The notes under the pieces are model-generated. The model had not been told where the DNA came from. It was given only the letters and a program-made list of their open reading frames with translations, and did no database searches. A stretch of DNA of 64,000 bases from a virus, in IMG/VR virus record IMGVR_UViG_3300020122_000058, positions 1 through 64,000 of that record. The stretch is one strand, 5' to 3'. Both the position numbers and the translations under genes were made by a program. Positions 10,423 through 39,705 of this stretch are shown piece by piece (position 1 is the stretch's first letter; the number at the start of each line of letters is the position of its first letter).

Positions 10423-10673
10423 ATCCGCGCGCTGCGCAAGAGATGATGATCCTGGACTCATTGCCGAAGCGCCTGCAACGGTTCGCTGATCGCGAAAGCA
10501 GGTACGGGGTGAGTGCTGGTGAACTTCTTCTATTTTACCAGCGCTTCAACTGGGACGTGGATGCCACGTTGCAGTTCTTCCGGAATGCAGAAAACAACCT
10601 GACAGCCGCCATCAGAGCAGATCTGGTGAAGTTCGGCCCGCAGGTAGCGAGGTCCATCCGCCGTGCCGCTTGA
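10404..10673 (+). CDS. hypothetical protein (89 aa; start uncertain)
   Basis: ORF track. An alternative start lies at the internal MMILDSL. Confidence 0.45.
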   Translation: MEPEQVDPRAAQEMMILDSLPKRLQRFADRESRYGVSAGELLLFYQRFNWDVDATLQFFRNAENNLTAAIRADLVKFGPQVARSIRRAA

Positions 10674-16252: not shown

Positions 16253-16695
16253 TGGCCACTGTACGAGGAGGCACCAAGTTTGAAGCAGCCCTCAAGTCTC
16301 TGGCGGAGAAGCTGAAGAAAGCAAAGGTGGTGCGTGTCGGTTTTCTTGAAGATGCCACGTATCCTGACGGTACGAAAGTCGCTCTCGTTGCGGCAACCCA
16401 GAACTTCGGTGCCCCCAAGCGGAAAATTCCTCCGCGTCCGTTCTTCTCCAACATGGTGGAAGAACGTCAGAAAGAATGGCCCAAGGCGCTGGCGACAAAT
16501 TTGAAGAACAACGGGTATGACGCTGCGAAGGCGCTGGATCTGGTTGGATTCGGCATTGAAGGCCAACTCAGACAGTCTATCCAGCAAACCAATGAGCCGC
16601 CGTTGAAAGCGGCCACGGTGAAACGGAAGGGCTTCAACAAGCCCCTCATTGATACTAGTCACATGATCAACAGCGTCGACCACGAGGTCGAATAA
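16252..16695 (+). CDS. HK97 gp10-like head-tail/neck protein
   Basis: 147 aa from ATG 16252, which overlaps the upstream TGA. The ending KRKGFNKPLIDTSHMINSVDHEV resembles the gp10-family PLxDTG motif. Confidence 0.5.
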   Translation: MATVRGGTKFEAALKSLAEKLKKAKVVRVGFLEDATYPDGTKVALVAATQNFGAPKRKIPPRPFFSNMVEERQKEWPKALATNLKNNGYDAAKALDLVGFGIEGQLRQSIQQTNEPPLKAATVKRKGFNKPLIDTSHMINSVDHEVE

Positions 16696-16704: not shown

Positions 16705-17736
16705 ATGAACGCTCTTACAGCATCTCTTTTCAGTTCTGCGGTTGGTGATCTTCCTGGCTTCTCTGCGCTGGCAGCGTTGGCAGGTCTGGATGCAGCACCG
16801 ACCAACACAAACATCACCACTGCTGGCAACGGCACTCTGACTGCGGCTGCCATCGTCGGTGGGCTCATCACGCGCACTGGCCCGACCGGCGCTTACACCG
16901 ATACCACGGACACTGCGGCTGCGATCGTTGCCGCTGCCGGTGGTGTATTCACCTCTGGGCAGATCATCACGTTCACCGTGAAGAATTCTGTTGGGTTCAC
17001 ACAGACGATCAACGGCGGCACCGGCGTCACGATGCCTGCAAACAATATCGTCGGTCCGTTGCAGGAAGCCACGTTTGAAGCAACCGTCGGCGGTACCGCT
17101 GCGGCACCGACTCTCACGGTAACGCATGTCGGCACTACTTCCATTTCCATGGCACCCTCCGTCACTGCGCCTGTATCAACAGCGCTCAACACGGTCGGCG
17201 CTGGCACTATCACAGCGGCAGGCATCAACGGCGGCATCACGGCGCGCGGCGGTTCACAGGCCAACGCTGCATTCACGGATACCACGGATACCGCAGCCAA
17301 CATCGTCGCTGGCAATCCTGCATTGATCGGCAAGGTGGGCGCTTCTTTCCTCTACGCATACCAGAACACCACCAACGCGAACGCCACGTTGCAGGGCGGC
17401 ACCGGCGTTACTGTTTCAGGCGTCACAGTGGTGCCAGGAAACTGCACCGCGCTGTTCCTCGTTACGCAGACTGCGGCCAACACCATCACGATGGTCGGTT
17501 TGCTTGTCACGCATCCCAGTGCGCCGAACGGAACGTTCGTGGCCAACGGTGCCACTGCGGTGGTCGTCGCTGATACGCGTCTCACCGCCAATTCTGTGAT
17601 CGTGTTCACGATGAAAACTGTGGGCGGCACGCCTGCCGGTGCGCCGTTCCTCTCTGCAGCAACGCCGGGCACCGGCTTCTCGGTGAAAGCCGCAGCCGGT
17701 GACACCAGCACCTACAACTACATCATCCTGAACTAA
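16705..17736 (+). CDS. T/A/G-rich structural protein with internal tandem duplication
   Basis: 343 aa. Two related halves each contain TDTTDTAA[AN]IVA ... GGTGVT[MV]. No family recognised. Confidence 0.6.
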   Translation: MNALTASLFSSAVGDLPGFSALAALAGLDAAPTNTNITTAGNGTLTAAAIVGGLITRTGPTGAYTDTTDTAAAIVAAAGGVFTSGQIITFTVKNSVGFTQTINGGTGVTMPANNIVGPLQEATFEATVGGTAAAPTLTVTHVGTTSISMAPSVTAPVSTALNTVGAGTITAAGINGGITARGGSQANAAFTDTTDTAANIVAGNPALIGKVGASFLYAYQNTTNANATLQGGTGVTVSGVTVVPGNCTALFLVTQTAANTITMVGLLVTHPSAPNGTFVANGATAVVVADTRLTANSVIVFTMKTVGGTPAGAPFLSAATPGTGFSVKAAAGDTSTYNYIILN

Positions 17737-17737: not shown

Positions 17738-18112
17738 ATGAACCTGCACGGGTTGGTCTCAGGCTTGATTGGTGTCATCAATCCGTTTGAGACCATCACG
17801 TACAATCAGAGTTCGGGATCCGAAACAGTGAGAAGCGGTAAGCGTACCCCAGAGTATGCCGCTTCCGTCAGCATAGTAGCGCAAGTTCAACCGTTGAACG
17901 CGAAGGATCTCACCCAAGTAGCAGGCTTAAATCTTCAGGGTGAATTCAAGAAGTTCTGGTTCAACGGCGAGGCCTTTGACACCGTACGCAAATTCCTGAA
18001 GGGCGGCGATATCATCGTGCGCCCAAAGGATGGTACCACGTGGCTCACCACCCAAGTGGTGGAGCAGTGGCCTGATTGGTGCAGCATCATCGGCACGCTG
18101 CAAAACGGTTGA
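17738..18112 (+). CDS. head-tail adaptor/head-closure-like protein
   Basis: 124 aa. The C-terminal KGGDIIVRPKDGTTWLTTQVVEQW resembles the head-tail joining family ending. The position fits. Confidence 0.4.
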   Translation: MNLHGLVSGLIGVINPFETITYNQSSGSETVRSGKRTPEYAASVSIVAQVQPLNAKDLTQVAGLNLQGEFKKFWFNGEAFDTVRKFLKGGDIIVRPKDGTTWLTTQVVEQWPDWCSIIGTLQNG

Positions 18113-18122: not shown

Positions 18123-18512
18123 ATGAAACACAAGATCATCGGCGCTGCTGTTGCGCTGGCGCTCTGCCTTGGGCAGCGTGCCTTCGCGCAAGTTGCGCCT
18201 CCGCAGCCGCCCGGTACGCCTGCACTCGCAGGGTTCGTGACGGTCAGCGTTACCAACAGTGCATCTGCCGGTGCGGCTCTGCCTGGATCAACGCAGGCAT
18301 TTCCGGCTCTGACGCTGAAGAATTCCGGAACAAAGGATGCGTTCTGCGCGTTCGGAGGATCTGGCGTAGCAGCCACCACCAGCAGCACACCGATCCGCTC
18401 TGGTGATCATGTGAATATGTGGGCAGGCACCGGCACCTATGTGTCCTGTATCACAGGCGGCACGGACACTACGACTGTGACTGTGTATCAGGCGAACGGA
18501 CCGGTGATGTAA
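18123..18512 (+). CDS. secreted-type protein, stand-alone copy of the fibre N-terminal domain
   Basis: 129 aa from ATG 18123 (RBS gaggag). The signal peptide is MKHKIIGAAVALALCLGQRAFA/QV. The mature part is paralogous to residues about 25-130 of the next gene. Confidence 0.65.
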   Translation: MKHKIIGAAVALALCLGQRAFAQVAPPQPPGTPALAGFVTVSVTNSASAGAALPGSTQAFPALTLKNSGTKDAFCAFGGSGVAATTSSTPIRSGDHVNMWAGTGTYVSCITGGTDTTTVTVYQANGPVM

Positions 18513-21500
18513 TGCTCAAGAAACTTCTTGCCGCTGCGCTTTTCCTGCTGGCCATTCCGGCAGCGGCGCAGCAACTTCCCATCCCGCCTACGGCAGCGCT
18601 CGCACCCGGTGTGCAGCCGGTTATCAACGTCACCAATGCCACCGGCACTGCGCCTGTGCAGCTTCCGGCCTCCACGGTGCCGTACCCCGCTGTCACGTTG
18701 CTGAATTCCGGTAACAAGGACGCCTACTGCGCTCTCGGCGGGCCTGGAGTGGTGGCAACCACAAGTTCCCCGCCGCTGCGGGCTGGTACCAGCCTGCCGC
18801 TGCTGGCGCAGGGGAACGGCTACGTGGCGTGCGTTACGGCAAGCACCGATACCACCACCGTCACGGTGTATCAGGCCACAGGGGCTCTCAGCCTGCGCAC
18901 GCAGGGCAGCAGCGGGGGTGGCGGCAGCGGCGGTATTACCCAACTGACAACCGACGTATCTGCGAGTGGACCGGGAACAGCCGTCGCTACGGTCAACTCC
19001 TACAATGGCGGCACCACCTTCGGGACTGCGGCTCACCAAAACGTAAGCGCGTTCCTGCAACCTTCCAACAATCTCTCTGACGTTGGCAGCGCATCTACTT
19101 CGCGCACCAACCTTGGCTTGGGAACGGCTGCAACGCAGAACGTATCTGCATTTCTGCAGCCATCCAACAATCTGTCAGATGTGCTGAGCGCATCTACTTC
19201 GCGCACCAATCTTGGTCTTGGCACCGCTGCCACGCAGAACGTGAGTGCGTTCCTGCAACCATCCAACAATCTGTCGGATGTGAGCAGCGTTTCAACGTCA
19301 CGCACCAATCTTGGTCTCGGCACTGCCGCGCTCGTCAACACCGGTACCACGTCAGGCACCGTTCCTCTCCTGGACACCAACGGCAATCTCGCGGCCAATC
19401 AGTCTGGCAATGCTTGCGCCTTGGGCTCAGTGTACCGGATTGATTTCTGCGATGACTTTCATCGCCCCAACACTTCAACAGGTGTGATCGGTACTCCGCC
19501 CAACGGCGTGGCCTACAATCTGGTGAACGCCAGCGGTGGAGCAGATACTCTCAGCCAGATCATCAGCAACACCTGGACCCAACAGCAGTCGAATCTGCCT
19601 GTCGGTACTTCAGCCTCGTACGCCTACCAATCATTCAATTATCAGGCCAACCACTTCGGTGGCTGCTTCGTGTGGAATTCAACCGGTCAGGCTGGAGCGG
19701 ATAGCTCGCCTGCGGTGGCTTCTACCGTCAGTTCGGCAGGTACGTTCACCTCTGTTGCTGTGCACGTGGTGCCCACCCGTACCAATTTGCAGATCGGCTA
19801 CTTCCTGAGTGGTGTGCTTACACCGGTGTCGGGTTCTCCGATTACGCTGCCGTTCACCATCGCAGTTGGCCAACAAGTTTGCCTAGACATCGTGGTGGAT
19901 GCCGGTATGATCCGGTATTCCTACGCAGGTGTCTCCGGAACGCTGTACAACAAGAACATCAGCAACATCCAGCTAGGCAACAAAGTCTTCTGGGAATTGT
20001 TCAACAACGTTCAGAACCCGGCCAATATCCCGGCGTGGACAGCCGCTTGGGCTGGCAATGCGCTCACTGGCGTGCCCAGCGCGGCAGACAACGTGATTGC
20101 CGCGTACCATTTTGATAGCGGCCTGAACGATGCTACTGGCAACGGTAACACGCTCACTGGCGTGAATAGCCCCACCTTCGTGGTGCCAGGACAGGTAGGC
20201 GGTGCGCTCAATCTTGTAGCTGCATCTTCTCAGAAGGCGACTCTTGCCTCAAATACTGATGTTCAGCTTGGCAATTCTGACTGGACCATTTCAGGATGGG
20301 TCAAGTTCAACTCATTGCCTGCGTCTGGTCATTTCATGGCTATCGTTGATAAATCCACAGGGGCCAATGCGCTTGAGAATACCATCTATGTAGTGAATGC
20401 GGCTGGCACCACAACCTTCAGCGCGGAAGCAAGCCAGGATGGCACCCAAACCAATGCGAAGAACGTAGCGGATAGCACTCCGCTTTCCACCGGCACTTGG
20501 TATTACTTTGAAGAACGCTACAATTCTATTGGAGCAGGTCTGCTGACGTTGCAGATCAACAACGGTACCAACAGGAATGTCGTTCTTTCCGGAAACTTCA
20601 ACGGTACCGGCACGTTCACCGTTGGTTACAGCCCATGGCTCAACGCGTCAGTCGCCAACCCGTATCTTGATGGTCAGGTGGATGAGCTAACCATCTTCAA
20701 GACGCCCCCTGGAATGGGAGGCAATCTCAGCGTTCAGAAACAGAACCAAGTGTACAACGATGGTCGTGGTACCGCGTGGCCCTTGGGCGGTGTTCCGCCT
20801 GCGCTGGCCAATGCAGTCTCCACCACCGGCACGCCTGCCACCGGTAATCTGACCAAGTTCTCAGGTGCGACCACCATCACCAACGGTGATCTGTCAGGGG
20901 ATTGCACCACCACCGGCACGCTTGCCATTACCTGTACCAAGACCAACGGTGTGTCCTTCGCTACCAGCGCCACGACGGACACTACCAATGCCAGCAATAT
21001 CTCCAGCGGCACGCTTGCTGCGGCACGCGGCGGTGCAGGCACAATCACAGGAGCGCTCAAGGGCAACGGTGCTGGCCTTGTGAGCCAAGCAGCCTGCGCA
21101 GATCTGTCAAACGCGGCAGCGTCCTGTTCCACGGATGCTACGAATGCGTCCAACATTTCGTCAGGCTCCTTGGCGATCGGGCGCTTTCCTGCCATTGCTG
21201 CTGACAGCACATTCCTGAATGCTACAGGCAGCAGCGCTGCACCAACTGCGGTGGCGTTTCCGTCCTGTTCCACAGGCACAAGCGCGCTCACGTACAACAC
21301 GACCACGCATGCGCTTGGATGCAATAGCATCTCTGGTGGTGGTCTTACTGTGGGAACGACGACTATAGCTTCAGGAACGGCTGGTGGTCTTCTCTATGAT
21401 AGCGGCCCCGGCACGCTCCAGGAGGATAGCGGCCTCACGCGCCCAGGACCGGGACAGATAAGCCATGCAACTGGTTCTCTCTCGGCGAATGGTCCAGTGC

Positions 21501-22138
21501 TGAACTTCACGACAACATGGAACAATTCAGGAGTCGCATTCAAGGCGATCACCGGAACAATCACGAATACGGCGAGCGCAGCGGGTTCTTACGTCATCGA
21601 TATCCTCAACGGAACAAATCACGTTCTTACGATGGATCCGACGAACGTCATGTATCTTGGAGATAGCGGTGGCGTCTCCAAGATTTGTTCTGACTCTTCT
21701 GGCGCTATCTCAACGACGACTTGTACTGTTTGGCAGACGAATGGAGCAATCTCCTTCTACTCAAACGGCAATGGCGGCTTTCAGGTAGGCAGCTACTTTG
21801 CCACTGGTACTAACCGAACGCCTATCGGTTGGGCTAACATCGCGAATATCGGTCCGACAACGTCTGCAGCCGATACAGCCTTCTCACGTGACGCTGCTAA
21901 AGTTGTTGATCTTGGAAACGGCACACAGGCAGATAAGACCGGGCAACTCAATCTCACGACGATCGGTCTTCAAGGTGTGACAGTGGCTTCTCTTCCTGGA
22001 ACACCTGCTGCTGGGATGGTTGCCTACGTCAGTGATGCAAACGCAGCTTGCTCTGCAGGAACAACTCCGACGGGTGGCGGCTCAACAAAATGCTTCGTTG
22101 GCTACAACGGCACTGCATGGAAGGAATTTGGAATATGA
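18512..22138 (+). CDS. giant fibre-like protein (1208 aa): signal peptide, duplicated N-domain, 3x33-aa fibre repeats, LamG-like lectin domain
   Basis: It starts at ATG 18512 (TAATG overlap) with MLKKLLAAALFLLAIPAAA/QQ. After a GGGGSGG linker it carries three NVSAFLQPSNNLSDV..S.STSRTNLGLGTAA repeats. The LamG-like region runs AYHFDSGLNDATGNGNTLTG ... WTISGWVKF ... LDGQVDELTIF. Confidence 0.75.
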   Translation: MLKKLLAAALFLLAIPAAAQQLPIPPTAALAPGVQPVINVTNATGTAPVQLPASTVPYPAVTLLNSGNKDAYCALGGPGVVATTSSPPLRAGTSLPLLAQGNGYVACVTASTDTTTVTVYQATGALSLRTQGSSGGGGSGGITQLTTDVSASGPGTAVATVNSYNGGTTFGTAAHQNVSAFLQPSNNLSDVGSASTSRTNLGLGTAATQNVSAFLQPSNNLSDVLSASTSRTNLGLGTAATQNVSAFLQPSNNLSDVSSVSTSRTNLGLGTAALVNTGTTSGTVPLLDTNGNLAANQSGNACALGSVYRIDFCDDFHRPNTSTGVIGTPPNGVAYNLVNASGGADTLSQIISNTWTQQQSNLPVGTSASYAYQSFNYQANHFGGCFVWNSTGQAGADSSPAVASTVSSAGTFTSVAVHVVPTRTNLQIGYFLSGVLTPVSGSPITLPFTIAVGQQVCLDIVVDAGMIRYSYAGVSGTLYNKNISNIQLGNKVFWELFNNVQNPANIPAWTAAWAGNALTGVPSAADNVIAAYHFDSGLNDATGNGNTLTGVNSPTFVVPGQVGGALNLVAASSQKATLASNTDVQLGNSDWTISGWVKFNSLPASGHFMAIVDKSTGANALENTIYVVNAAGTTTFSAEASQDGTQTNAKNVADSTPLSTGTWYYFEERYNSIGAGLLTLQINNGTNRNVVLSGNFNGTGTFTVGYSPWLNASVANPYLDGQVDELTIFKTPPGMGGNLSVQKQNQVYNDGRGTAWPLGGVPPALANAVSTTGTPATGNLTKFSGATTITNGDLSGDCTTTGTLAITCTKTNGVSFATSATTDTTNASNISSGTLAAARGGAGTITGALKGNGAGLVSQAACADLSNAAASCSTDATNASNISSGSLAIGRFPAIAADSTFLNATGSSAAPTAVAFPSCSTGTSALTYNTTTHALGCNSISGGGLTVGTTTIASGTAGGLLYDSGPGTLQEDSGLTRPGPGQISHATGSLSANGPVLNFTTTWNNSGVAFKAITGTITNTASAAGSYVIDILNGTNHVLTMDPTNVMYLGDSGGVSKICSDSSGAISTTTCTVWQTNGAISFYSNGNGGFQVGSYFATGTNRTPIGWANIANIGPTTSAADTAFSRDAAKVVDLGNGTQADKTGQLNLTTIGLQGVTVASLPGTPAAGMVAYVSDANAACSAGTTPTGGGSTKCFVGYNGTAWKEFGI
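19037..19333 (+). repeat. 3 x 99-bp in-frame tandem repeat (fibre collar repeats)
   Basis: The units lie at 19037-19135, 19136-19234 and 19235-19333. They are read directly from the DNA and encode the 33-aa repeats. Confidence 0.85.
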
Positions 22139-22509
22139 AGAACCTGTTCAGGGCCGTTGCCCTTGGGTTTTGTTTCTGGGCTGCGCTTCACGCTGATGCC
22201 TTAGCGGCAACGTCTTCTCCTGGAACAACCGGACTTTCGCTCAGTGAAACTGATGCAACCACATCTACGCCGATTACGTATTTTTCAATCGTGAGCGCAA
22301 ATCTGAACACGGTTGATGGAACGACATCTATCATAGTATGCGGGTACGTCAGTCAGGCAGTTGCTGTGGCCAACCCGCGCGGCGGCTGTATCACTAGCCG
22401 CACACTCACGGCAAATGTCATTCCGACTGGAGATTTGCTGTTGGCCGCGTACAGCAAACTGCTGACGCTTCCGGAATTCTCTGGTGCCGTGCAAGTCGGC
22501 ACTCCCTAG
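22135..22509 (+). CDS. secreted-type protein (124 aa)
   Basis: ATG 22135 overlaps the fibre stop (ATGA). The signal peptide is MKNLFRAVALGFCFWAALHADALA/AT. Confidence 0.6.
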   Translation: MKNLFRAVALGFCFWAALHADALAATSSPGTTGLSLSETDATTSTPITYFSIVSANLNTVDGTTSIIVCGYVSQAVAVANPRGGCITSRTLTANVIPTGDLLLAAYSKLLTLPEFSGAVQVGTP

Positions 22510-22533
22510 TTCACCAAGCGCAAAGGAGGAACC

Positions 22534-22809
22534 ATGCGCATTTTGAAGATGACGGCATTCGCCGTCTTGTTGGCCACCGCAGCCACAGCGGAAACCAAGC
22601 CAGCGGCACCACCGCAGGAGCCTACCACGACGATGGAGGTCACCATGCAAGATCTCCAGATATTCTCCACGCAACTCAGCTCTGCCGGTGCGCAGTGTGA
22701 TGCAGGCAATCAGTTCGCCTGTCTTCTCACGAACCCGAATGTGCGCGGTCCGCTGTTGAACAAGATCAACGCGGCGGCCCAGGAGCTTCAGAAGAAGGCG
22801 AAGAAATAA
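22534..22809 (+). CDS. secreted-type protein (91 aa)
   Basis: The signal peptide is MRILKMTAFAVLLATAATA/ET. The mature part has two Cys and a Lys-rich end. Confidence 0.6.
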   Translation: MRILKMTAFAVLLATAATAETKPAAPPQEPTTTMEVTMQDLQIFSTQLSSAGAQCDAGNQFACLLTNPNVRGPLLNKINAAAQELQKKAKK

Positions 22810-22810: not shown

Positions 22811-23215
22811 GTGGCTGCAACCGTCGTCAAATATGCTCTGGACGCAAATACAGAGCAACCGTTCCCAACCCTGTGGTATGACGACGGCTCTGGCAATCTG
22901 AAGCAGGTCGTTGAGAACGTCAACAATCTGCCCAGCGGGATCACGCCGGTCACAGGGCAATTCACGCAGACCGGCGTGAGCGCCAGCTTCACTCCCATTC
23001 CGGGACGTGGGTTCAACGTCACCATCTGGGGTAATTGGCAGGGTGCGCTCCAGTTGAACCGTTCGTTTGACGGCGGTACCACCTGGATACCGGTGGATAC
23101 TTCGCTCATTCAGAACGTGAGCAAGGTGTACGTTGAACCAGAAGCCGGTGTGATGTATCAGCTTGACTGCACTGGCTTTGTGAACGGACCAGTCAACTAC
23201 CGTATCAGTCAGTAA
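22811..23215 (+). CDS. hypothetical tail/neck-module protein (GTG start)
   Basis: 134 aa, from GTG 22811 one nt after the upstream stop. The composition is beta-rich. Confidence 0.55.
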   Translation: MAATVVKYALDANTEQPFPTLWYDDGSGNLKQVVENVNNLPSGITPVTGQFTQTGVSASFTPIPGRGFNVTIWGNWQGALQLNRSFDGGTTWIPVDTSLIQNVSKVYVEPEAGVMYQLDCTGFVNGPVNYRISQ

Positions 23216-23216: not shown

Positions 23217-23987
23217 ATGCCAGGAACACCGTGGTTCTGGTTTGGTGGCGTTGCTGAAGGCGCAGGCATTGCCTCGCTCGTGCCTTCACAGGACGACATT
23301 CAGATCGTACTGCGTGACTTTCTGCTTGCCATCTGTCCCGGCGTTGAAGTGGTGGAAGGCTGGGACAACCGCGTACCAGAACCAAAGGGGGACAACTACA
23401 TCGTTTTCTGGCCGATCAGGCGCAAGCGCTTGGCCACGAACTACGATAAGACCGTAGATGCGGCTTTCATCGGCAGCATCAACGGCAATGTGCTGACCAT
23501 CACGGAAGTGCTGGCTGGCAGGCTTGATGCGCAGGCCCAGCTTTATGGGTTGAACATCGTGCCGGGTACCACGGTGGTTGCCATGATCTCCGGCGAAGGC
23601 GGAGTAGGCACTTACCAATTGGACAAAGCCCAGAACCTTGGGCCTACGATCATTCAGACCGGCACACAGGAATTCACTCAGTCAACGGACGTTACGTTCC
23701 AGATTGAGCCGCACGGTCCCAAGGCCGCAGACATGGCGCAAACGATCTCAACCATGTTCAGGGATAATTATGCCTTTGAGTTCTTTGAAGAACGCGAGGC
23801 AGATATCTATCCTCTACATGCTGATGATCCAAACTTCGTGCCATTCCAGAACGATCAGAACCAAGTAGAATTCCGGTGGATCGTAATGGCCCACGTGCAA
23901 GCAGATCAGACCAACAAGTTCCCGCAGCAGTTCATGACAGCGATTGAGGTCAACCTCATCGAAGTGGACACAACCTACAGAGGATAG
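23217..23987 (+). CDS. tail terminator/sheath-proximal protein with one inserted copy of the shared module
   Basis: 256 aa, directly upstream of the sheath gene. The insert is SINGNVLTITEVLAGRLDAQAQLYGLNIVPGTTVVAMISGEGGVGTYQL. Confidence 0.45.
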   Translation: MPGTPWFWFGGVAEGAGIASLVPSQDDIQIVLRDFLLAICPGVEVVEGWDNRVPEPKGDNYIVFWPIRRKRLATNYDKTVDAAFIGSINGNVLTITEVLAGRLDAQAQLYGLNIVPGTTVVAMISGEGGVGTYQLDKAQNLGPTIIQTGTQEFTQSTDVTFQIEPHGPKAADMAQTISTMFRDNYAFEFFEEREADIYPLHADDPNFVPFQNDQNQVEFRWIVMAHVQADQTNKFPQQFMTAIEVNLIEVDTTYRG

Positions 23988-33967: not shown

Positions 33968-35428
33968 ATGAAGAAACTTATCTCTGCGTTCTTGGCGCTC
34001 TGCGCTCTGTGCGCGCCTGCAAGCGCGTTGAACCAGACGGACATACCGGCAAAGTTCCCGATCACGTGGGGTGCTAACGCCGGGCCTTCATTCATTCGCA
34101 GCATTCCGGTGACTTCTCAGATCGGTATCCAGAATGGTGCTGCATCTCTCACTGACGGTTTCCCTCCGCTGACGTTCACGCCGGTTTCTGCTGGTGGCGT
34201 CCCGCCCTTTGGGCAGGACATGAATGGCATCCTCAACCAGCTTTCTGCATGGGGTCAATGGCAAAACGCTGGCGGACCGGTGCAGTACGATGCCAGCTTC
34301 GCAGCGACTGCCGGTGGCTATCCCAAGGGCGCGGTGCTTTCTGCAACCAGCTTCGGCAATTTCTGGGTCAGTACGGTGGATGGTAACACGTCCAATCCGG
34401 ACACAGGCGGTGCCAACTGGGTTGGCTTCTCACCGGTGTATCAGTACGCACTTGACACTGGTACCGCCAACGCTGGCTCTGTGACGTTGCCGATTACGAT
34501 CACAGCGCTTTCCCAAATTACCGGCAGACCGATCACAGTCAAGAAGATCAGTCAGAGCAACACCGGAGCGTACACGCTTACCATCAACACGTTCTCTGCT
34601 TCTGTGCGGCATATTGACGGCACCGCGCTGAACAGCGGTGATCTCCCGGCGAGCGGCCCCTTCACAGTCGTGTACGACGGCACTAACCTGTATCTTCAGT
34701 CTCCGGTGCAAGCCTCTGTTCTTGGCACGGCTGCTACCAAGAATGCGACGGATAACACGCAGACCAAAGTGGCTTCTGTCAAAGGCACTATCACGTCCAC
34801 TCATCTTGCTGTGTTCCTGGACAGCAACGGTACTATCGGAGATGCCGGTTCTGCCTTGGGCAGTTATCTCCAGGCACCGAACAATCTTTCTGATCTGGCC
34901 TCTGTTTCAACGGCACGCACCAATCTTGGTCTTGGCGCTACGGCTACGCTGAATGTCGGCACTGGGCTTTCTTCTGGCTCCGGCAATCTGAACATCGCTA
35001 CGAACGGCGTTACCAACTCTCTTCTCGCCCAAGCACCTGCGAACACTCTCAAGGGAAACAACACAGGCTCAACAGCCAATGATGCAGATCTGACAGTCGC
35101 CCAAGTGAAGGCGATGGTCGGCGGCACTGCGGCGCAGATCTTCTACGGCACTGTTTCCGGAACGACTCTTACACCAGTCTATACGCTTGGCGGTGTTTCA
35201 TGCTCGCGTGTCAGCACCGGCATCTATTCATGCAATCTTGGTTCCACTCCGCTGGTGGTTGGCAACGGTACGATCACCGGCAGCTTCCCCGGCGCAACTT
35301 CTCAGCGTGATTGGTATTGGCTGACACCGGGGCCATTCTCGGCCAATCAGACTGGCGTTCAGGCTCAGTTCCAGAATGCCTCAAACAACAATACCGATCC
35401 CTCTGATGTTCTTCTCATCTTCTACTGA
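33968..35428 (+). CDS. tail fibre protein 1 with signal-peptide-like N-terminus
   Basis: 486 aa from ATG 33968 (RBS gagga). The N-terminus reads MKKLISAFLALCALCAPASA/LN. The conserved fibre N-region is GFPPLTF...GGVPPFGQDMNGILNQLS. One NNLSDLASVSTARTNLGLG collar repeat is present. Confidence 0.7.
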   Translation: MKKLISAFLALCALCAPASALNQTDIPAKFPITWGANAGPSFIRSIPVTSQIGIQNGAASLTDGFPPLTFTPVSAGGVPPFGQDMNGILNQLSAWGQWQNAGGPVQYDASFAATAGGYPKGAVLSATSFGNFWVSTVDGNTSNPDTGGANWVGFSPVYQYALDTGTANAGSVTLPITITALSQITGRPITVKKISQSNTGAYTLTINTFSASVRHIDGTALNSGDLPASGPFTVVYDGTNLYLQSPVQASVLGTAATKNATDNTQTKVASVKGTITSTHLAVFLDSNGTIGDAGSALGSYLQAPNNLSDLASVSTARTNLGLGATATLNVGTGLSSGSGNLNIATNGVTNSLLAQAPANTLKGNNTGSTANDADLTVAQVKAMVGGTAAQIFYGTVSGTTLTPVYTLGGVSCSRVSTGIYSCNLGSTPLVVGNGTITGSFPGATSQRDWYWLTPGPFSANQTGVQAQFQNASNNNTDPSDVLLIFY

Positions 35429-35437: not shown

Positions 35438-37672
35438 ATGCTGAAGCGAATTCTGTTTCCCATCCTCGCGCTGCTGGCGCTGGCTGCACCTGCTGCGGCT
35501 GCGCCGTGTCCTTGGCCATTTTCATACGGCCAAGTGCTAACGACGGCGCAGTGGAATTACTGTGTCGGCTTGGCGGTGAATGCTCTGCCAACTTCCGGTG
35601 GATCCATGACGGGGCCGCTCATCACGGCTCCATCAACCATCAACGGTGCGGGGTTTAACATTCCTGCTGGCATTGCGCCCACAGCGCCGAATAACGGAGA
35701 TATGTACGACACGCTCTCCGGTCTATTCGCGTATGTGAACGGTCAGTGGGTTGGTCCGTTCCCCGGTACGTCAGCCACCAAGGGTCTCGGTACCAGCGTG
35801 AATGACCCTGGAACTGGAAACCTGGAAGCACTGATACCAGTGCAGACAGTGACGGGTGCCAGCAAGACCTACACTACTGCTGATCTCTTCAAGCGCACGC
35901 GGCGCACAAATTCTGGCTCAGCGATGTCGGACACGTTGCCAGCCGCAGGCACTACTGGTTTGGCAAACGGTACGACAATCCAGATCGCAAACTCTGATGC
36001 CACTGCCGTTGACACCATCACGGCAGGTGCTGGTACCACGATCGGCAGCGGCAGCACTTATTCTCTCATCGCTTCGCGCTCAGTCTGGTTCACCTATGAT
36101 CTGGCGAATACGGCATGGCGCTCTGTCGCTGACACCACGTCAACCGTCAGCGGTCCCGCTTCCTCTGTGAACAATGACATCGTCACTTTCAGCGGCACTT
36201 CCGGCCTGCTGATCCAGGACTCCGGTCAAGTGATGCCTAGCGGAACACTGGTGGCCACTTCAACAGGTTCACCGGCGAAAGGAGACGTGCTGTACTACAA
36301 CGGCACCAACTGGACAGATCTTCCCGCTGGTACTTCTGGCTTCTTCCTTGAGACGCTCGGTGCGGGTGCCAACCCGGCATGGGCCGCAGCGGCAGGCGGC
36401 TCTGGTTGCACCATCTCCGGCGGTTCGCAGTTTCAGATCATCGTGAACAACGGTTCAAGCGGCTGTTCTTCCTCTGCCAATGGTTCACTCCAGGTTGGTG
36501 CATTGACGCTGGGTGCTTCCGGCACCTTGGGCTCAGTGAGCATGGGCAACGCCACGAGCGGCACTGTGAAAGTGCAGCCTGTTACCGGAGCGCTTGGTTC
36601 CTCCGTGGTTTCTCTACCAGCCGTTACCGGTACTGCACTGGTCACCACCACTGCTTCTCCGGCGCAGGGCGATATTGAATACTTCAACGGCACCAACTGG
36701 GTTTCTCTTGCTGCCGGTACTTCTGGTCAAGTGTTGAAGACAAACGGTGCAGGTGCAAACCCTGCATGGACTGCGGCAGCTTCTGGCTGTACCATAGTCG
36801 GCGGTTCAGTGAACAACCCAATCACGAACAACGGCTCTAGCGGTTGCCAGAACGACACGTCTGCCACGCTCAACGCAGGTGCGCTTGCTTTGGGCTCATC
36901 CGGCGTAGCTGGCTCTGTGGCCATGGGCAACGCAACAAGCGGCACCGTTACCGTGCAGCCTGTGACTGGTGCGCTTGGCTCCGTGACGGCAAGCCTGCCT
37001 GCCAACACCGGCACCGTTGCTGAGCTCAATCTGGCCCAAACATGGACGGCGGTGCAGTCGCATAACTCCGGCAATCTTGCGCTTAATGGCGCAACGTCTG
37101 GCTCGCTGACCGTGAATTGCACAGCAACATGCGGCAGCAACACCGCAACGTTCCCAGCCAACACCGGCACCGTTGCTGAGCTCAATCTGGCCCAAACGTG
37201 GACGGCTGCGCAATCATTCAATAGCAGCACGTTGAAAGTCAATGGTTCTACTTCAGGAACCATGACGGTCAATTGTGCTGCCACATGCGGCAGCAACACC
37301 ATGACGTTGCCAGCCGTGACGGACACGGTGGCAGTGCTGGGCACAGCCGATCAGACCGTATCCGGTGGTGCCAATCTTACGGCATTCAGCATCGGCACGG
37401 TTAGCTCTGGCACCACCACCATTGACTGCGGTAAGAACGCCGTTCAATATCTCACCAACGGTGGGGCATTCACATTCGCTGCACCCAGCAATGATGGGGC
37501 CTGCGTGGTTCTGGTGACGAACAACGGAACGGCTGGCACCATTACTTTCTCCGGCTTCTCAGTCGGCTCCAACACTGGTGACGCATTGACGACCACGAAT
37601 ACCAACAAGTTCATGATCTCAGTGCTGCGCATCAACGGCACTGCCACTTACACAGTGAAGGCCCTCCAATGA
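35438..37672 (+). CDS. tail fibre protein 2 with signal-peptide-like N-terminus and nested internal repeats
   Basis: 744 aa. The N-terminus reads MLKRILFPILALLALAAPAAA/AP. It contains two ~125-aa repeats followed by two 52-aa repeats. Confidence 0.7.
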   Translation: MLKRILFPILALLALAAPAAAAPCPWPFSYGQVLTTAQWNYCVGLAVNALPTSGGSMTGPLITAPSTINGAGFNIPAGIAPTAPNNGDMYDTLSGLFAYVNGQWVGPFPGTSATKGLGTSVNDPGTGNLEALIPVQTVTGASKTYTTADLFKRTRRTNSGSAMSDTLPAAGTTGLANGTTIQIANSDATAVDTITAGAGTTIGSGSTYSLIASRSVWFTYDLANTAWRSVADTTSTVSGPASSVNNDIVTFSGTSGLLIQDSGQVMPSGTLVATSTGSPAKGDVLYYNGTNWTDLPAGTSGFFLETLGAGANPAWAAAAGGSGCTISGGSQFQIIVNNGSSGCSSSANGSLQVGALTLGASGTLGSVSMGNATSGTVKVQPVTGALGSSVVSLPAVTGTALVTTTASPAQGDIEYFNGTNWVSLAAGTSGQVLKTNGAGANPAWTAAASGCTIVGGSVNNPITNNGSSGCQNDTSATLNAGALALGSSGVAGSVAMGNATSGTVTVQPVTGALGSVTASLPANTGTVAELNLAQTWTAVQSHNSGNLALNGATSGSLTVNCTATCGSNTATFPANTGTVAELNLAQTWTAAQSFNSSTLKVNGSTSGTMTVNCAATCGSNTMTLPAVTDTVAVLGTADQTVSGGANLTAFSIGTVSSGTTTIDCGKNAVQYLTNGGAFTFAAPSNDGACVVLVTNNGTAGTITFSGFSVGSNTGDALTTTNTNKFMISVLRINGTATYTVKALQ
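37001..37312 (+). repeat. 2 x 156-bp in-frame tandem duplication in fibre 2
   Basis: The units start at 37001 and 37157. Their first 50 nt differ at one base (gccaacaccggcaccgttgctgagctcaatctggcccaaac[a/g]tggacggc), and the rest has diverged. Confidence 0.8.
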
Positions 37673-38421
37673 GATATCTCTGCGCTCTTCTAGCGTGGCT
37701 GTTGCTCTCTGCGTTTACGGCTACGAATGTCGGCACTAACGCAAACACTTCAGGAGCGACGCTCGCTGTCACACTTGGCAGCGGTGTCACAGGCTCTTCC
37801 ACGACGTGGATATGGGTTTGCGTGGACGAGCATACTTCTTCTCTCACGATTGGACCTATCGCAGACAGTAGAAGCAACACCTATCACGCATTTCAAAACA
37901 ACACGCTGACCAACAACAATGCGACTTTGTTCTACGCCAACGTCGCGACCAGCCTGATAGCTGGTGACACCATCACTTTCACCAAGGCAGTTTCTGGTGA
38001 TCGTGCTGCGATGTCGGTGTTGGTTGTTTCTCCAGGTGTTGATCCTGGAATAGCTGGCAATTCTGCGGGAGGTAACGCCACCGGCACCAGTTCAACTCCC
38101 AGCGCCCAGATAGGCGTGAACGCGGGGCCTTCTCCGCCGTGGTACCTGATCGGCTGTATCGGCACAGGTGGCAATGCGGGAACATTCACGCAGGCACTAT
38201 CCCCGGCAGCGTGGTCTGTGCCGTTCAACGAAGCCAAGTCTGGCACCACAAGTAGTGACGCCAGAGTTGACGGTGGTTTCCTCAGCATCACGAGTCCCTC
38301 TTTCCCGAACTACGCTCCCACATTTTCAGTCTCCGTTCCTTGGATTGATGTTGGTTCGGGAGTCAAGCAATTCGTACCCGGCACTGGCGGTTTCATCTTT
38401 AACCCGAATGTGATCCCATGA
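37669..38421 (+). CDS. secreted-type protein downstream of fibres (250 aa)
   Basis: ATGA overlap at the start. The N-terminus MRYLCALLAWLLLSAFTATNVG is signal-like. The rest is beta-rich and Ser/Thr/Gly/Asn-rich. Confidence 0.6.
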   Translation: MRYLCALLAWLLLSAFTATNVGTNANTSGATLAVTLGSGVTGSSTTWIWVCVDEHTSSLTIGPIADSRSNTYHAFQNNTLTNNNATLFYANVATSLIAGDTITFTKAVSGDRAAMSVLVVSPGVDPGIAGNSAGGNATGTSSTPSAQIGVNAGPSPPWYLIGCIGTGGNAGTFTQALSPAAWSVPFNEAKSGTTSSDARVDGGFLSITSPSFPNYAPTFSVSVPWIDVGSGVKQFVPGTGGFIFNPNVIP

Positions 38422-38909
38422 TCATCTCAGACGTGTTGCTTAACAATGCGCTGGCCATCGCATGCCCCTTCGTGCAGAAGTGGGAAGCGTTCAAGTCGCA
38501 TCCGTATCTGTGCCCGACAGGGCACTGGACGATCGGCTTCGGTTCCACGAGCTATCCAGACGGCACGTCTGTGACACAGCACGACGCACCCATCTCGCTC
38601 AGCACTGCAATCGAGATGGCGGTGAATGGCATGCGTAAGGAGGCCGGTCAGATCTCGTTCACACGCGTGCCCACGGCGCATCAACTCGCGGCCATCCTGG
38701 CATTCGCATACAATGTGGGTGCACACGGTGCGGATCACTCCACGCTGATGCACTTGTTCAACCAAGGTTTTGTGAACGCGGCTGCGGCGCACTTCATGGA
38801 CTGGGACAAGGGTCGTGACAAGAACGGCACCCTCATTGTGATAAATGGCTTGCTGAACCGGCGCATGGCAGAAAGCGCCATGTTCCAAACGCCGGACAGC
38901 GCCCCGTGA
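38418..38909 (+). CDS. endolysin, T4-lysozyme (GH24) family
   Basis: 163 aa. WEAFKSHPYLCPTGHWTIGFG fits the catalytic E-x8-(D/C)-x5-T triad. NGLLNRRMAESAMF is the typical ending. Confidence 0.8.
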   Translation: MIISDVLLNNALAIACPFVQKWEAFKSHPYLCPTGHWTIGFGSTSYPDGTSVTQHDAPISLSTAIEMAVNGMRKEAGQISFTRVPTAHQLAAILAFAYNVGAHGADHSTLMHLFNQGFVNAAAAHFMDWDKGRDKNGTLIVINGLLNRRMAESAMFQTPDSAP

Positions 38910-39325
38910 GGCGCTTGGCGTTGGCACTGCCTGTGCTGCTGTGCGGCTGCGCAGGGCTGCCAGATTACAAACCCTACGTGGTCGTAGCCGATGCCCCGCA
39001 GTACCAGCGGGATGACGCCTATTGCCGCCACGTGGCAGCCCTTGACCCTAACAGCGGGCTCTCTACAGGGGCAATCGCAGGGCAGGGCGGCAAAGGTGCC
39101 GCCAGCAATCTACCGGCAAGCCTGCCCGCTATGGGAACCAGTACCAAGGGCATGAATTGGTTCGTCATTTTGTTTGGCGCTATCGGCGGCAGCTTGGGTG
39201 AAGTGTCTGAAGAGCTACACGTCACCGACGTGCGCCAGCAACGCATCTTCTTGAAGTGCTTGGACAAGATCACTGAACGGGATCGGTCAGGTCTTGTCGT
39301 TGAACCAGAACCGATCCAGCAATAA
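38906..39325 (+). CDS. lipoprotein with Gly-zipper hydrophobic segment (lysis-cassette associated)
   Basis: 139 aa with a GTG start (GTGA overlap). MRRLALALPVLLCGC has the lipobox LLCGC. An internal segment reads WFVILFGAIGGSLG. Confidence 0.55.
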   Translation: MRRLALALPVLLCGCAGLPDYKPYVVVADAPQYQRDDAYCRHVAALDPNSGLSTGAIAGQGGKGAASNLPASLPAMGTSTKGMNWFVILFGAIGGSLGEVSEELHVTDVRQQRIFLKCLDKITERDRSGLVVEPEPIQQ

Positions 39326-39336
39326 GGAGGACTACC

Positions 39337-39705
39337 GTGGATTTCATTCTCAAAGCAATGCGTGCCGCCTTGAACAACGGCCTGCTCCGCGCCAAGATCC
39401 TTGGCGCTCTTCGTCATCTCGCGACTGCGGGCGGCGGAGCCATCGTTACACTCGCTATCCCTTTTCTGCTTTCACACGGCTTCACAGCGCAAGACGCCAC
39501 CACGTATGGTGACGCTGCCGGTGGACTTGCGGTGGGCTTCATCATGCTCGTCGGCGGTGCGACCCTTTCATGGGTTGACAAGAACAAGGTTGACGTTCAA
39601 CTTCAGACGGCGGCTGCCACCAGTATGATCGTGCCGGTGCCGGGTGTGCTGAAGGTGCCTTCCGCCGATCAAGTGATCGCAGATGCAAAGGCGGGGAAGT
39701 TCTGA
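39337..39705 (+). CDS. holin-like membrane protein
   Basis: 122 aa from GTG 39337, preceded by the RBS aaggagg. It has two hydrophobic helices (GGAIVTLAIPFLLSHGF and GGLAVGFIMLVGGATLSW). It is adjacent to the endolysin. Confidence 0.55.
   Translation: MDFILKAMRAALNNGLLRAKILGALRHLATAGGGAIVTLAIPFLLSHGFTAQDATTYGDAAGGLAVGFIMLVGGATLSWVDKNKVDVQLQTAAATSMIVPVPGVLKVPSADQVIADAKAGKF

What the first reader, a model, noticed from the sequence alone, without database searches (positions are those of the whole stretch)
18123..22809. Four consecutive neck-region proteins, including a 1208-aa fibre, carry textbook Sec signal peptides
The four N-termini read as follows:
- MKHKIIGAAVALALCLGQRAFA/QV (18123)
- MLKKLLAAALFLLAIPAAA/QQ (18512)
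- MKNLFRAVALGFCFWAALHADALA/AT (22135)
- MRILKMTAFAVLLATAATA/ET (22534)

Each has a basic n-region, an 11-14 residue hydrophobic core and a small-x-small cleavage motif. The genes are translationally coupled (TAATG, ATGA) into the connector-to-sheath operon. The large one carries phage fibre collar repeats and a LamG-like lectin domain, so they look like virion parts. Tailed-phage virions assemble in the cytoplasm, and exported virion components are not part of the established model.

One possibility is a set of exported, envelope- or surface-acting proteins hidden in a late structural operon. The other is an undescribed role for cleavable-looking leaders in fibre assembly.
Basis: partly seen in the sequence, partly recalled or inferred. 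Interest (0 to 1): 0.8.

Follow-up and report, generated by a model that had tools for sequence, protein, structure and literature searches.

The report
Phage fibres carrying Sec export leaders
In this uncultured tailed phage and many relatives, the fibre proteins, including the true baseplate tail fibre, start with bacterial export signals and carry paired cysteines, which suggests the fibres mature outside the cytoplasm and join the particle only at lysis, a route not in the textbook assembly model.

Summary
All four N-termini are present, sit behind good ribosome-binding sites or coupled stops, and fit Sec/SPase-I rules.

- **Location.** The four genes lie in a slot between the neck collar and tail terminator genes. 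Cultured relatives have nothing there. Three uncultured relatives fill the same slot with different leader-bearing cargo.
- **More leaders.** Three further consecutive genes carry leaders: the canonical baseplate tail fibre (33968), a second fibre (35438) and a 250-aa protein (37669).
- **Tail-fibre family.** 33 of 119 members have a roughly 20-aa leader placed exactly ahead of the residue that is Met-1 in leaderless homologues. These fall into six leader-bearing groups on a tree.
- **Cysteines.** Leader forms have twice the cysteine density and mostly even counts. One cysteine pair occurs only together and only in leader forms.
- **g129 and the g1208 N-terminus.** These are paralogues of a family of 349 clusters, about 94% of which carry leaders.

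Best reading (confidence about 0.55): the fibres are Sec-exported, disulfide-bonded in the periplasm, and attached to cytoplasmic particles at or after holin action. The main rival is that they are exported proteins that never enter the virion. Nothing has been tested experimentally, and I found no published precedent for tailed phages.

The parts
17738..18112 (+). Neck collar protein (E217 gp28-like, phrog_1912). It forms the upstream border of the insertion slot.
   Evidence: In cultured relatives (phiE131 L001, Orisa03 L002) this gene is followed directly by the terminator.
18123..18512 (+). g129. The leader is residues 1-22 (18123-18188). The mature protein is a 107-aa beta-jellyroll 'N-domain' with one covarying Cys pair.
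18512..22138 (+). g1208 fibre. Its parts are:
- leader, residues 1-19 (18512-18568);
- N-domain paralogous to g129 (about 18569-18901);
- Gly linker;
- three collar repeats (about 19028-19384);
- Laminin_G_3 domain (about 20255-20704);
- distal region rich in paired cysteines.

The mature protein has 16 cysteines arranged in 8 close pairs.
22135..22509 (+). g124. The leader is residues 1-24 (22135-22206). The mature protein has 2 Cys. It is an orphan.
   Evidence: no homologue in any fetched locus
22534..22809 (+). g91. The leader is residues 1-19 (22534-22590). It is followed by a Pro-rich linker and a helical part with a Cys pair (CDAGNQFAC). It is an orphan.
22811..23215 (+). g134. It has no leader and 1 Cys. 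It is the last gene of the insert. A 39%-identical leaderless homologue lies in the fibre-accessory region of a Rhodovarius prophage.
23217..23987 (+). Tail terminator (Phage_tail_terminator_9). It forms the downstream border of the slot.
33968..35428 (+). Canonical baseplate tail fibre (phrog_12796), directly after the DUF2612/Phage_Wedge1 gene. It has a 20-aa leader (33968-34027). Homology to leaderless fibres starts at residue 21-25.
35438..37672 (+). Second fibre, 744 aa. The leader is residues 1-21 (35438-35500). A conserved YGQVLTTAQWN motif follows the leader. The mature protein has 12 Cys in 6 close pairs.
37669..38421 (+). g250. It has a leader-like N-terminus (MRYLCALLAWLLLSAFTA) and 2 mature Cys. 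It is the last gene before the endolysin.
38418..39705 (+). Lysis cassette: GH24 endolysin (38418-38909), lipoprotein with an internal hydrophobic segment (38906-39325), and a two-TMD holin-like protein (39337-39705). This is the proposed step at which the compartments mix.
   Evidence: The role in fibre attachment is inferred.

Best explanation
The four neck proteins belong to a set of seven fibre-module proteins in this phage that are made with genuine Sec-type, SPase-I-cleavable leaders.

**Proposed mechanism**
1. The fibre subunits are translocated unfolded into the periplasm.
2. They fold and oligomerise there, with host Dsb enzymes forming their many intrachain disulfides.
3. They meet the fibreless head-tail particles, which were assembled in the cytoplasm, only when the holin and endolysin breach the inner membrane or in the lysate.
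4. They then dock through conserved N-terminal attachment domains.

**Proposed roles in the neck slot**
- g1208 is a neck or whisker-type fibre. Its N-terminal jellyroll domain, duplicated as the free protein g129, is the conserved module of the slot and is probably the anchor.
- g124 and g91 are probably periplasmic accessory or assembly factors.
- The leaderless g134 may be a partner on the particle side.

**Shown**
- The leaders exist and are translated.
- They are conserved in position but not in sequence.
- They have been gained or lost repeatedly.
- They covary with paired cysteines.
- The genes sit in structural slots.

**Inferred**
- Export actually occurs.
- The leaders are cleaved.
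- Disulfides form.
- The proteins are incorporated into virions.
- Attachment happens at or after lysis.
For: **1. The canonical tail fibre has a leader.**
- phrog_12796 aligns from residue 21 of the protein to position 1 of the profile.
- Cultured-phage fibres align from residue 22-25.
- A GAGGAA Shine-Dalgarno sequence precedes the ATG at 33968, while none precedes the codon at the junction.

**2. Leader state across the tail-fibre family.**
- 32 of 118 classifiable database homologues carry a leader.
- With the window protein included, that is 33 of 119 tips, in 6 maximal leader-bearing clades and at least 5 state changes on a neighbour-joining tree.
- Identity of the attachment domain between leader-bearing and leaderless forms is 0.58, against 0.60-0.64 within each class.
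- In every context inspected, the leader-bearing fibre sits directly after Phage_Wedge1.

**3. Cysteines track the leader in that family.**
- Density is 1.16 versus 0.55 Cys per 100 aa.
- Even versus odd counts are 23:6 in leader forms and 24:50 in leaderless forms (Fisher p = 2e-5).
- Two positions in the attachment domain are Cys together in 16 leader forms, never singly, and never in the 86 leaderless forms (p = 4e-11).

**4. Cysteine counts in this window and in L159.**
- All ten leader-bearing proteins have even mature counts: 2, 16, 2, 2, 2, 12 and 2 in the window, and 6, 8 and 30 in L159.
- The cysteines fall in close pairs.
- The leaderless collagen-like fibre in the same L159 slot has none.

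**5. The N-domain family.**
- It has 349 representative clusters, always with the domain at the extreme N-terminus.
- About 94% carry leaders.
- Its two conserved Cys positions are both present in 15 members and both absent in 134, with no singletons.
- A rare leaderless member has 0 Cys and lies in the head-neck module of its phage.

**6. Synteny.** Collar, then a leader-bearing N-domain gene, then the terminator, is the order in four related phages: the window, L159, L163 and L165.

**7. Enrichment by position.** Leader-like N-termini are frequent among genes downstream of the tail fibre (25 of 69 and 49 of 257). They are rare among tail and baseplate genes (19 of 490).

**8. No leaderless alternative.** In some relatives (L007/L023, L110), both fibre candidates next to the baseplate genes carry leaders. 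No leaderless alternative is visible in the stretch held.
Against: - There is no experimental evidence of any kind.
- No trained signal-peptide predictor could be run.
- The statistics are not corrected for phylogeny. For example, the sequences with the covarying pair appear to fall within one large leader-bearing clade.
- Cultured relatives all have leaderless fibres, so no virion proteome bears on the question.
- Paired cysteines could in principle oxidise after release rather than in the periplasm.
- Attaching fibres only at lysis risks dilution. The step is kinetically unproven. No factor that promotes it was identified.
- g124 and g91 are orphans, so their roles are guesses.
- Leaderless cargo (g134, and the collagen-like fibre in L159) shares the slot, so export is not obligatory for genes in the slot.
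Confidence: 0.55

Rival explanations
1. These are exported proteins that never enter the virion. They would act on the host envelope or surface during infection. Possible roles are receptor masking or superinfection exclusion, digestion of capsule or LPS from within, or decoys that stop progeny from sticking to debris. They would simply ride in the late operon, as lambda Lom and Bor, Cor, or T5 Llp do.
For: - The leaders look functional, and the paired cysteines fit a periplasmic or extracellular life.
- Cargo in the neck slot is highly variable between relatives.
- g124 and g91 are orphans.
- Cultured relatives do without any gene in this slot.
- Exported proteins in phage late operons are an established phenomenon (own knowledge).
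Against: - The leader-bearing tail fibre keeps the conserved baseplate-attachment domain and the canonical slot after Wedge1.
- Some phages show no leaderless fibre in the stretch seen next to the baseplate genes.
- The N-domain gene is syntenically conserved in the neck module.
- The genes are translationally coupled, and their G+C matches the surrounding sequence.
- g1208 carries virion-type collar repeats.
Confidence: 0.22
2. The hydrophobic N-terminus is not used for export of the mature protein. It might act on the cytoplasmic side as a transient membrane tether that concentrates fibre assembly at the inner membrane. It might be an uncleaved structural or oligomerisation helix. Export might also be inefficient, with the cytoplasmic fraction being the one that is assembled.
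For: - This reading keeps the textbook cytoplasmic assembly model.
- The residue at +1 is always aliphatic (M, L or I, rarely A) and aligns with Met-1 of the leaderless forms. That could reflect a structural need at the N-terminus.
Against: - The cores are only 11-13 residues and are followed by canonical A-x-A sites. That pattern is typical of cleaved signals, not of anchors.
- The leader sequences are not conserved, whereas the mature domains are 57-67% identical.
- The link between leader presence and paired, even-numbered cysteines is unexplained if folding is cytoplasmic.
Confidence: 0.13
3. The leaders are an annotation artefact or the result of dual initiation. The true start would lie downstream of the leader, for example the TTG at 34028. 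Alternatively, two isoforms would be made, and only the short cytoplasmic one would be structural.
For: - In the window, the codon at the predicted cleavage junction of the tail fibre is TTG.
- In 7 of 17 IMG/VR leader-bearing loci it is ATG.
Against: - In the other loci the junction codon is CTC, CTA, ATC, ATA or GCC.
- No Shine-Dalgarno-like sequence precedes it in any locus, whereas clear ones precede the leader start codons.
- Non-coding DNA would not keep encoding a basic, then hydrophobic, then A-x-A peptide in dozens of diverged loci.
- The four neck leaders begin at coupled or Shine-Dalgarno-backed ATGs.
Confidence: 0.05

Closest known systems
Bdellovibrio bacteriovorus MAT (mosaic adhesive trimer) fibres (PMC10769870)
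   Same: The architecture is the same. [quoted passage not shown] They show that such fibres can fold after Sec export.
   Different: They are encoded by a predatory bacterium and deployed on prey, not by a phage, and they are not part of a virion. Homology between the MAT N-domain and the N-domain described here was not tested, because no MAT N-terminal sequence was at hand.
Filamentous (Ff) phage g3p and g8p
   Same: These are virion proteins, including the receptor-binding protein, that are made with cleavable leaders. In g3p, disulfides form in the periplasm (own knowledge).
   Different: Ff virions are extruded through the envelope and assembled at the membrane without lysis. Here the particle is an icosahedral contractile-tailed phage with a holin-endolysin cassette. 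Its heads and tails must assemble in the cytoplasm.
Exported proteins in late operons of tailed phages: lambda Lom and Bor, Cor, T5 Llp
   Same: These are leader-bearing proteins encoded among or next to tail genes and expressed late or from the prophage (own knowledge).
   Different: They are small outer-membrane proteins or lipoproteins with no fibre domains, and they are not structural. Here the leaders sit on bona fide fibre homologues and on a gene that is syntenically conserved in the neck module.
T4 long tail fibres and fibritin whiskers
   Same: In T4, fibres are built separately and added as the last step, and this step can be completed in vitro by mixing fibreless particles with fibres. 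T4 also has a neck-borne fibre encoded beside the neck genes (own knowledge). This shows that late attachment is mechanistically plausible.
   Different: T4 fibres are made and attached in the cytoplasm with cytoplasmic chaperones, and they have no leader. No sequence similarity to fibritin was found.
Sec-dependent and SAR endolysins, and the T4 antiholin RI
   Same: These are phage late proteins that use the host Sec system with N-terminal signals (PMC8385771 and PMC8951688 were seen in the searches).
   Different: They are lysis proteins, not virion components.
Ena endospore-appendage pilins / DUF3992 (PDB 8pdz, 7a02, 9i0y) and SPbeta YomS (6i5o)
   Same: These were the best solved-structure matches to the AlphaFold model of the N-domain. 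They share a small beta-jellyroll fold, and the Ena proteins form disulfide-linked fibres.
   Different: The match is weak (TM about 0.5, 12-17% identity, E 3e-4), and cupins score almost as well. The Cys-bearing N-terminal connector of Ena pilins is not present in g129.

Membership tests
Sec-type (SPase I) signal peptide | Basic n-region, an uncharged hydrophobic h-region of 7-15 residues, and small residues at -3 and -1 with no Pro at +1, all at the extreme N-terminus | tested here: met
   All four neck proteins meet the rule, as do 33968, 35438 and (less canonically) 37669. This was a rule-based scan. No trained predictor was available.
Sec-type (SPase I) signal peptide | Not a lipoprotein signal (no lipobox Cys at +1) and not a Tat signal (no twin arginine) | tested here: met
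   The sequences show neither feature. In contrast, 1919 (LGGC) and 38906 (LCGC) do have lipoboxes.
Sec-type (SPase I) signal peptide | Across homologues, the physicochemical pattern is conserved but the sequence is not, and the leader ends at a fixed junction with the mature domain | tested here: met
   Seen in 32 leader-bearing tail-fibre homologues, 17 IMG/VR loci and about 140 N-domain proteins.
Sec-type (SPase I) signal peptide | Actual translocation and cleavage | not testable with these tools
   This needs reporter fusions, fractionation or N-terminal mass spectrometry.
Baseplate tail fibre of Bcep781/E217-like myophages (phrog_12796) | A conserved N-terminal attachment domain and a position directly after the Baseplate_J and DUF2612/Phage_Wedge1 genes | tested here: met
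   This applies to 33968-35428. The same position holds in L005, L007, L009 and L110.
Phage fibre with collar-type repeats (phrog_2282; PDB 9zd7 gp92) | Tandem repeats of the form ...NLSD..S.STSRTNLGLG... | tested here: met
   g1208 residues about 173-291. One copy also occurs in the tail fibre at 33968.
Moron-type exported accessory gene (Lom/Bor/Cor/Llp-like) | An autonomous unit with its own promoter or terminator, atypical composition, patchy presence, and no structural-protein homology | tested here: not met
   The genes are translationally coupled. G+C is 0.55-0.59, like the flanks. The N-domain gene is syntenic in four phages. Fibre homology is present. Promoters and terminators were not scanned.
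Bdellovibrio MAT fibre superfamily | Signal peptide, then a conserved beta-rich N-domain of about 130 aa, then a trimeric fibre, then a variable tip | tested here: inconclusive
   The architecture matches. Sequence or fold homology of the N-domains could not be tested.
Ena / DUF3992 jellyroll pilins | A jellyroll fold plus a Cys-bearing N-terminal connector that cross-links subunits | tested here: inconclusive
   The fold match is weak. The Pro-rich N-terminal segment of g129 has no Cys, although some family members do have a CxxC there.
Virion component | Physical presence in purified particles | not testable with these tools
   No cultured relative carries these genes.

The most novel reading that the evidence does not exclude
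A widespread, undescribed branch of tailed-phage morphogenesis may exist. In it, receptor-binding fibres at both neck and baseplate are exported by Sec and oxidatively folded by the host Dsb system in the periplasm. They are added to fibreless cytoplasmic particles only once the holin opens the inner membrane.

This would make the host's Sec, LepB and Dsb machinery essential morphogenetic factors. It would also define a family of jellyroll 'anchor' domains (349 clusters) dedicated to these exported fibres.
Probability: 0.45. Interest if true: 0.9.

Novelty: new variant of a known kind. Interest (0 to 1): 0.8.

Why it matters
Every textbook scheme has tailed-phage particles, fibres included, built in the cytoplasm. 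If fibres in a broad set of environmental phages mature in the periplasm, several things follow.

- **Assembly model.** It gains an extracytoplasmic arm.
- **Host factors.** Secretion and disulfide machinery become host-range and resistance determinants.
- **Stability.** Disulfide-stapled receptor-binding proteins could explain environmental robustness.
- **Annotation.** Pipelines that treat a signal peptide as evidence against 'structural protein' would systematically mislabel receptor-binding proteins.
- **Engineering.** People expressing such fibres would need periplasmic expression.

The idea can be tested directly, because one isolate genome, Bradyrhizobium oropedii Pear76, carries a prophage with two leader-bearing fibres.

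Tried and rejected
**Close relatives of g1208**
- No match in cultured phages at the DNA level.
- No relative in IMG/VR.
- No relative in the metagenome scan.
- In the large protein database, only the collar repeats find homologues.
- As a result, leader conservation could not be tested on g1208 itself. I tested it instead on its N-domain and on the tail fibre.

**The exact g1208 protein** is not on record for a contig look-up.

**g124 and g91**
- Neither has a homologue in any fetched locus.
- Neither resembles the small leader-bearing proteins found in other fibre modules.

**Dual initiation at the cleavage junction.** I considered this because the +1 residue is always M, L or I. I largely rejected it because the junction codons are often not start codons and no Shine-Dalgarno sequence precedes them.

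**Wrong start or non-coding leader.** Rejected on recurrence across loci and on Shine-Dalgarno placement.

**Moron reading.** Weakened by synteny, translational coupling and matching composition.

**Structure prediction**
- A single-sequence AlphaFold run on g129 was uninformative (pLDDT 53).
- The run backed by an alignment worked (pLDDT 93.5).

**Other negative results**
- The first N-domain alignment, A3, was too diverse for locus finding.
- Pfam found nothing in g129, g124, g91 or g134.
- No phage-encoded Dsb or signal peptidase turned up among the roughly 30 proteins scanned. This scan was not exhaustive.
- Six literature searches found no report of Sec leaders on fibres of tailed phages. 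Papers that looked promising dealt with lysis proteins instead.

Full report
**What the window is.** The 64-kb window is most of an uncultured contractile-tailed phage genome.

The late genes run on the + strand in this order:
- terminase (3729-5483) and portal (5794-7482);
- Mu-F-like protein (7985-8791) and a NUDIX/DUF2213 fusion (10663-13101);
- cement or minor capsid protein (13134-14102) and major capsid protein (14116-15234);
- DUF4054 (15815-16252), Neck1 (16246-16695), a 343-aa protein (16705-17736) and an E217 gp28-like collar protein (17738-18112);
- the region in question;
- tail terminator (23217-23987), sheath (23989-25959), tube (25975-26403) and tape measure;
- baseplate genes (Baseplate_J at 31843-33291, DUF2612/Wedge1 at 33288-33959) and the fibre genes;
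- endolysin (38418-38909), a lipoprotein and a holin-like protein.

Replication genes lie on the - strand from about 41 kb. The nearest cultured phages are 42-48-kb Bcep781/AB1/phiE131-like myoviruses, at no more than about 47-50% protein identity. Nothing matches at the DNA level.

**Checking the observation.**
- The starts are credible. Strong Shine-Dalgarno sequences precede 18123 and 22534. TAATG and ATGA overlaps couple 18512 and 22135 to the genes before them.
- Each leader has a basic n-region, an uncharged core of 11-13 residues, and A-x-A before the predicted cut.
- None has a lipobox or a twin arginine.
- I could not run SignalP, so I applied one explicit rule to 88 gene calls. Ten were positive: the four neck genes in a row, three fibre-module genes in a row (33968, 35438, 37669), two lipoproteins (1919, 38906) and the gene at 9821.
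- Such clustering has a probability of about 1.5e-4 under random placement.
- The collar repeats of the 1208-aa protein are real, and so is its LamG-like domain.

**The neck genes occupy an insertion slot.**
- In cultured relatives, the collar gene is followed directly by the terminator.
- In the window, five genes lie between them: g129, g1208, g124 and g91, which all have leaders, and g134, which does not.
- g129 is a 48%-identical paralogue of residues 1-130 of g1208, leader included.

**The N-domain family.** A profile built from g129 and the g1208 N-terminus, searched against 1.84 billion representative proteins, found 349 clusters, 138 of them below 1e-10. In every case the domain sits at the extreme N-terminus.
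- About 94% of the 149 listed members start with a Sec-like leader followed by a Pro-rich stretch.
- Members come in two forms, as in the window: free proteins of 102-141 aa, and the N-terminal domain of proteins of 200-1236 aa.
- With a 37-sequence alignment, AlphaFold gives a confident beta-jellyroll (pLDDT 93.5).
- The best solved-structure matches are the disulfide-linked Ena endospore pilins and SPbeta YomS, but these are weak (TM about 0.5).
- Many small uncharacterised phage proteins match well (TM 0.7-0.85).

**The slot is conserved in relatives.** Three uncultured relatives, with core genes 35-55% identical, have the same order of collar, then a leader-bearing N-domain gene, then the terminator.
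- **L163** (73.5 kb) has only a free 133-aa N-domain protein there.
- **L165** (71 kb) has a 246-aa N-domain protein plus a 690-aa leader-bearing protein that looks beta-helix-like by eye.
- **L159** (52.6 kb contig) has four genes: a 378-aa N-domain protein, a 275-aa leader protein, a leaderless collagen-like fibre and a 1072-aa leader protein.

In other phages the N-domain heads the second fibre after the baseplate fibre (L158, L161). A rare leaderless, cysteine-free version lies in a head-neck module (L157). The N-domain is therefore a conserved module tied to a position in the genome, not a stray passenger gene.

**The key extension: the real tail fibre has a leader too.** The gene at 33968-35428 follows DUF2612/Wedge1 and matches the tail-fibre family phrog_12796. 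The match runs from protein residue 21 to profile position 1.
- Fibres of cultured phages align from residue 22-25.
- Residues 1-20 are MKKLISAFLALCALCAPASA, behind a GAGGAA Shine-Dalgarno sequence.
- Of 118 classifiable database homologues, 32 have such a leader. It ends exactly before the residue that is Met-1 in the 86 leaderless forms.
- In IMG/VR, 17 of 80 loci carry the leader.
- In genomes, the prophage copies are mostly leaderless. An isolate, Bradyrhizobium oropedii Pear76, has a prophage with two leader-bearing fibres.
- Wherever I looked, the leader-bearing fibre sits in the canonical slot after Wedge1.
- On a neighbour-joining tree of the attachment domain, the leader-bearing forms fall into six maximal clades, with at least five state changes. 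The window belongs to a clade of eight.
- The attachment domain is as conserved between the two classes (0.58 identity) as within them (0.60-0.64).
- The leaders keep their physicochemical pattern but not their sequence, as signal peptides do.

**Cysteines track the leaders.** This is the strongest indirect evidence that the leaders really route the proteins to an oxidising compartment.
- In the tail-fibre family, leader forms have 1.16 Cys per 100 aa against 0.55 in leaderless forms.
- Even versus odd counts are 23:6 in leader forms and 24:50 in leaderless forms (Fisher p = 2e-5).
- Two positions in the conserved attachment domain (QN-C and GG-C) are Cys together in 16 leader forms. They are never Cys singly, and never Cys in any of the 86 leaderless forms (p = 4e-11).
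- In the N-domain family, the two conserved Cys positions are both present in 15 members and both absent in 134, with no singletons.
- In the window, the seven leader proteins have 2, 16, 2, 2, 2, 12 and 2 mature cysteines in close pairs. Other structural proteins have mixed parity and 0.71% Cys.
- In L159, the leader proteins have 6, 8 and 30 cysteines, while the leaderless collagen-like fibre in the same slot has none.
- These tests are not corrected for shared ancestry.

**How general it is.**
- In loci of this tail-fibre family, leader-like N-termini are common among genes downstream of the tail fibre: 25 of 69 in leader-bearing loci and 49 of 257 in leaderless ones.
- They are rare among tail and baseplate genes (19 of 490).
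- Unrelated phage contigs found through the collar repeats show the same habit. L003 even repeats the arrangement of a small N-domain protein followed by a long leader-bearing fibre. L004 is a different kind of myophage.

**Mechanism I think most likely (confidence about 0.55).**
1. The fibre subunits are exported by Sec.
2. They are cleaved by signal peptidase I.
3. They are folded and disulfide-bonded in the periplasm.
4. They join fibreless particles when the holin-endolysin system merges the compartments, or in the lysate. They dock through the conserved tail-fibre attachment domain at the baseplate and, I infer, through the jellyroll N-domain at the neck.

Late, separate addition of fibres is known to work for T4, which I cite from my own knowledge. 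In the neck slot, g1208 would be a whisker-like fibre, g129 a free copy of its anchor, and g124 and g91 periplasmic helpers. All of this is inference from sequence.

**Rivals.**
- **Exported proteins that are not in the virion (0.22).** This remains possible, especially for the orphans. It fits poorly with the conserved attachment domain, the synteny, and the relatives in which every fibre candidate seen in the stretch next to the baseplate genes has a leader.
- **A role for the hydrophobic N-terminus on the cytoplasmic side (0.13).** This does not explain the cysteine pattern.
- **Wrong or dual starts (0.05).** The junction codons (CTC, CTA, ATC, ATA, GCC in many loci) and the lack of any Shine-Dalgarno sequence before them argue against this.

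**Comparison with what is known.** Six full-text searches found no report of Sec leaders on fibres of tailed phages.
- The closest architecture is the Bdellovibrio MAT fibre family. These are exported, phage-fibre-like trimers with a conserved beta-rich domain right after the signal peptide, and with disulphides in the tips (PMC10769870). I could not test homology to that family.
- Filamentous phage g3p and g8p are exported virion proteins, but they belong to an extrusion-type virus.
- Lom, Bor, Cor and Llp are exported but are not structural.
- Sec-dependent and SAR endolysins use Sec but are lysis proteins.

I therefore file this as a new variant of a known kind: phage fibres with an export route. 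It has high interest and rests on purely computational support.

Noticed in passing
window 13134-14102 (aa ~222-308), 23217-23987 (aa ~75-146), 23989-25959 (aa ~160-300): The same Gly/Thr-rich beta domain of about 70 aa (phrog_21413 / phrog_38233) is inserted in three proteins: the capsid cement or minor capsid protein, the tail terminator and the sheath. The sheath is about 160 aa longer than in cultured relatives. In tblastn against relatives, these inserts cross-hit one another. One decoration domain therefore seems to be displayed on head, neck and tail.
   Followed up: partly
window 38906-39325: A lipoprotein (lipobox LLCGC) with an internal hydrophobic segment (MNWFVILFGAIGGSLG) lies between the endolysin and the holin-like gene. 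It may be a unimolecular or otherwise unusual spanin.
   Followed up: no
window 1919-2293: A second lipoprotein (VLGGC, 5 further Cys) lies upstream of the terminase, next to a YspA/SLOG-domain protein (1246-1917). It is a candidate envelope-acting accessory gene.
   Followed up: no
window 34028 and tail-fibre homologues (P0121-P0237; L012-L085): The residue just after the predicted cleavage site is always aliphatic (M, L or I, once A). It aligns with the initiator Met of the leaderless fibres. The codons there rule out a general second start. The conservation is otherwise unexplained and may reflect a structural need at the mature N-terminus.
   Followed up: yes
L159 11881-13167: A leaderless collagen-like fibre (Collagen repeats, 0 Cys) sits in the same collar-to-terminator slot, among three leader-bearing, Cys-rich proteins.
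   Followed up: partly
L163 8986-9621 and L159 8954-9484: Another family of leader-bearing proteins (211 and 176 aa, homologous to each other) lies between Neck1 and the collar gene. The window has the leaderless 343-aa protein (16705-17736, with a K1-lyase_C-like C-terminus) in that place.
   Followed up: partly
L003 13159-13944: A 261-aa protein in a cluster of leader-bearing fibres starts with a Tat-like motif (VNRRTLLKGAAASALF...AKA). Some fibre-module proteins may therefore use the Tat route.
   Followed up: no
N-domain family (P0241, P0251, P0278, P0281; alignment A3): Several free-standing N-domain proteins have a single conserved Cys (..AICGG..) instead of the covarying pair. Some others have a CxxC in the Pro-rich N-terminal segment. 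Given the weak fold match to disulfide-linked Ena pilins, intermolecular disulfides are conceivable.
   Followed up: no
window 10663-13101: A NUDIX hydrolase domain is fused to a DUF2213 (Pa193_gp24-like) head-morphogenesis protein. The same fusion occurs in relatives L163 and L165.
   Followed up: no
L009 15968-16732; L049 17323-18078; L055; L063: Leader-bearing phages of the same tail-fibre family encode outer-membrane beta-barrel proteins (L009: Pfam OMP_b-brl). I judge these to be Omp25/RopB-like from the look of their N-termini. They lie just after the fibre genes and hint at hosts in the Rhizobiales.
   Followed up: no
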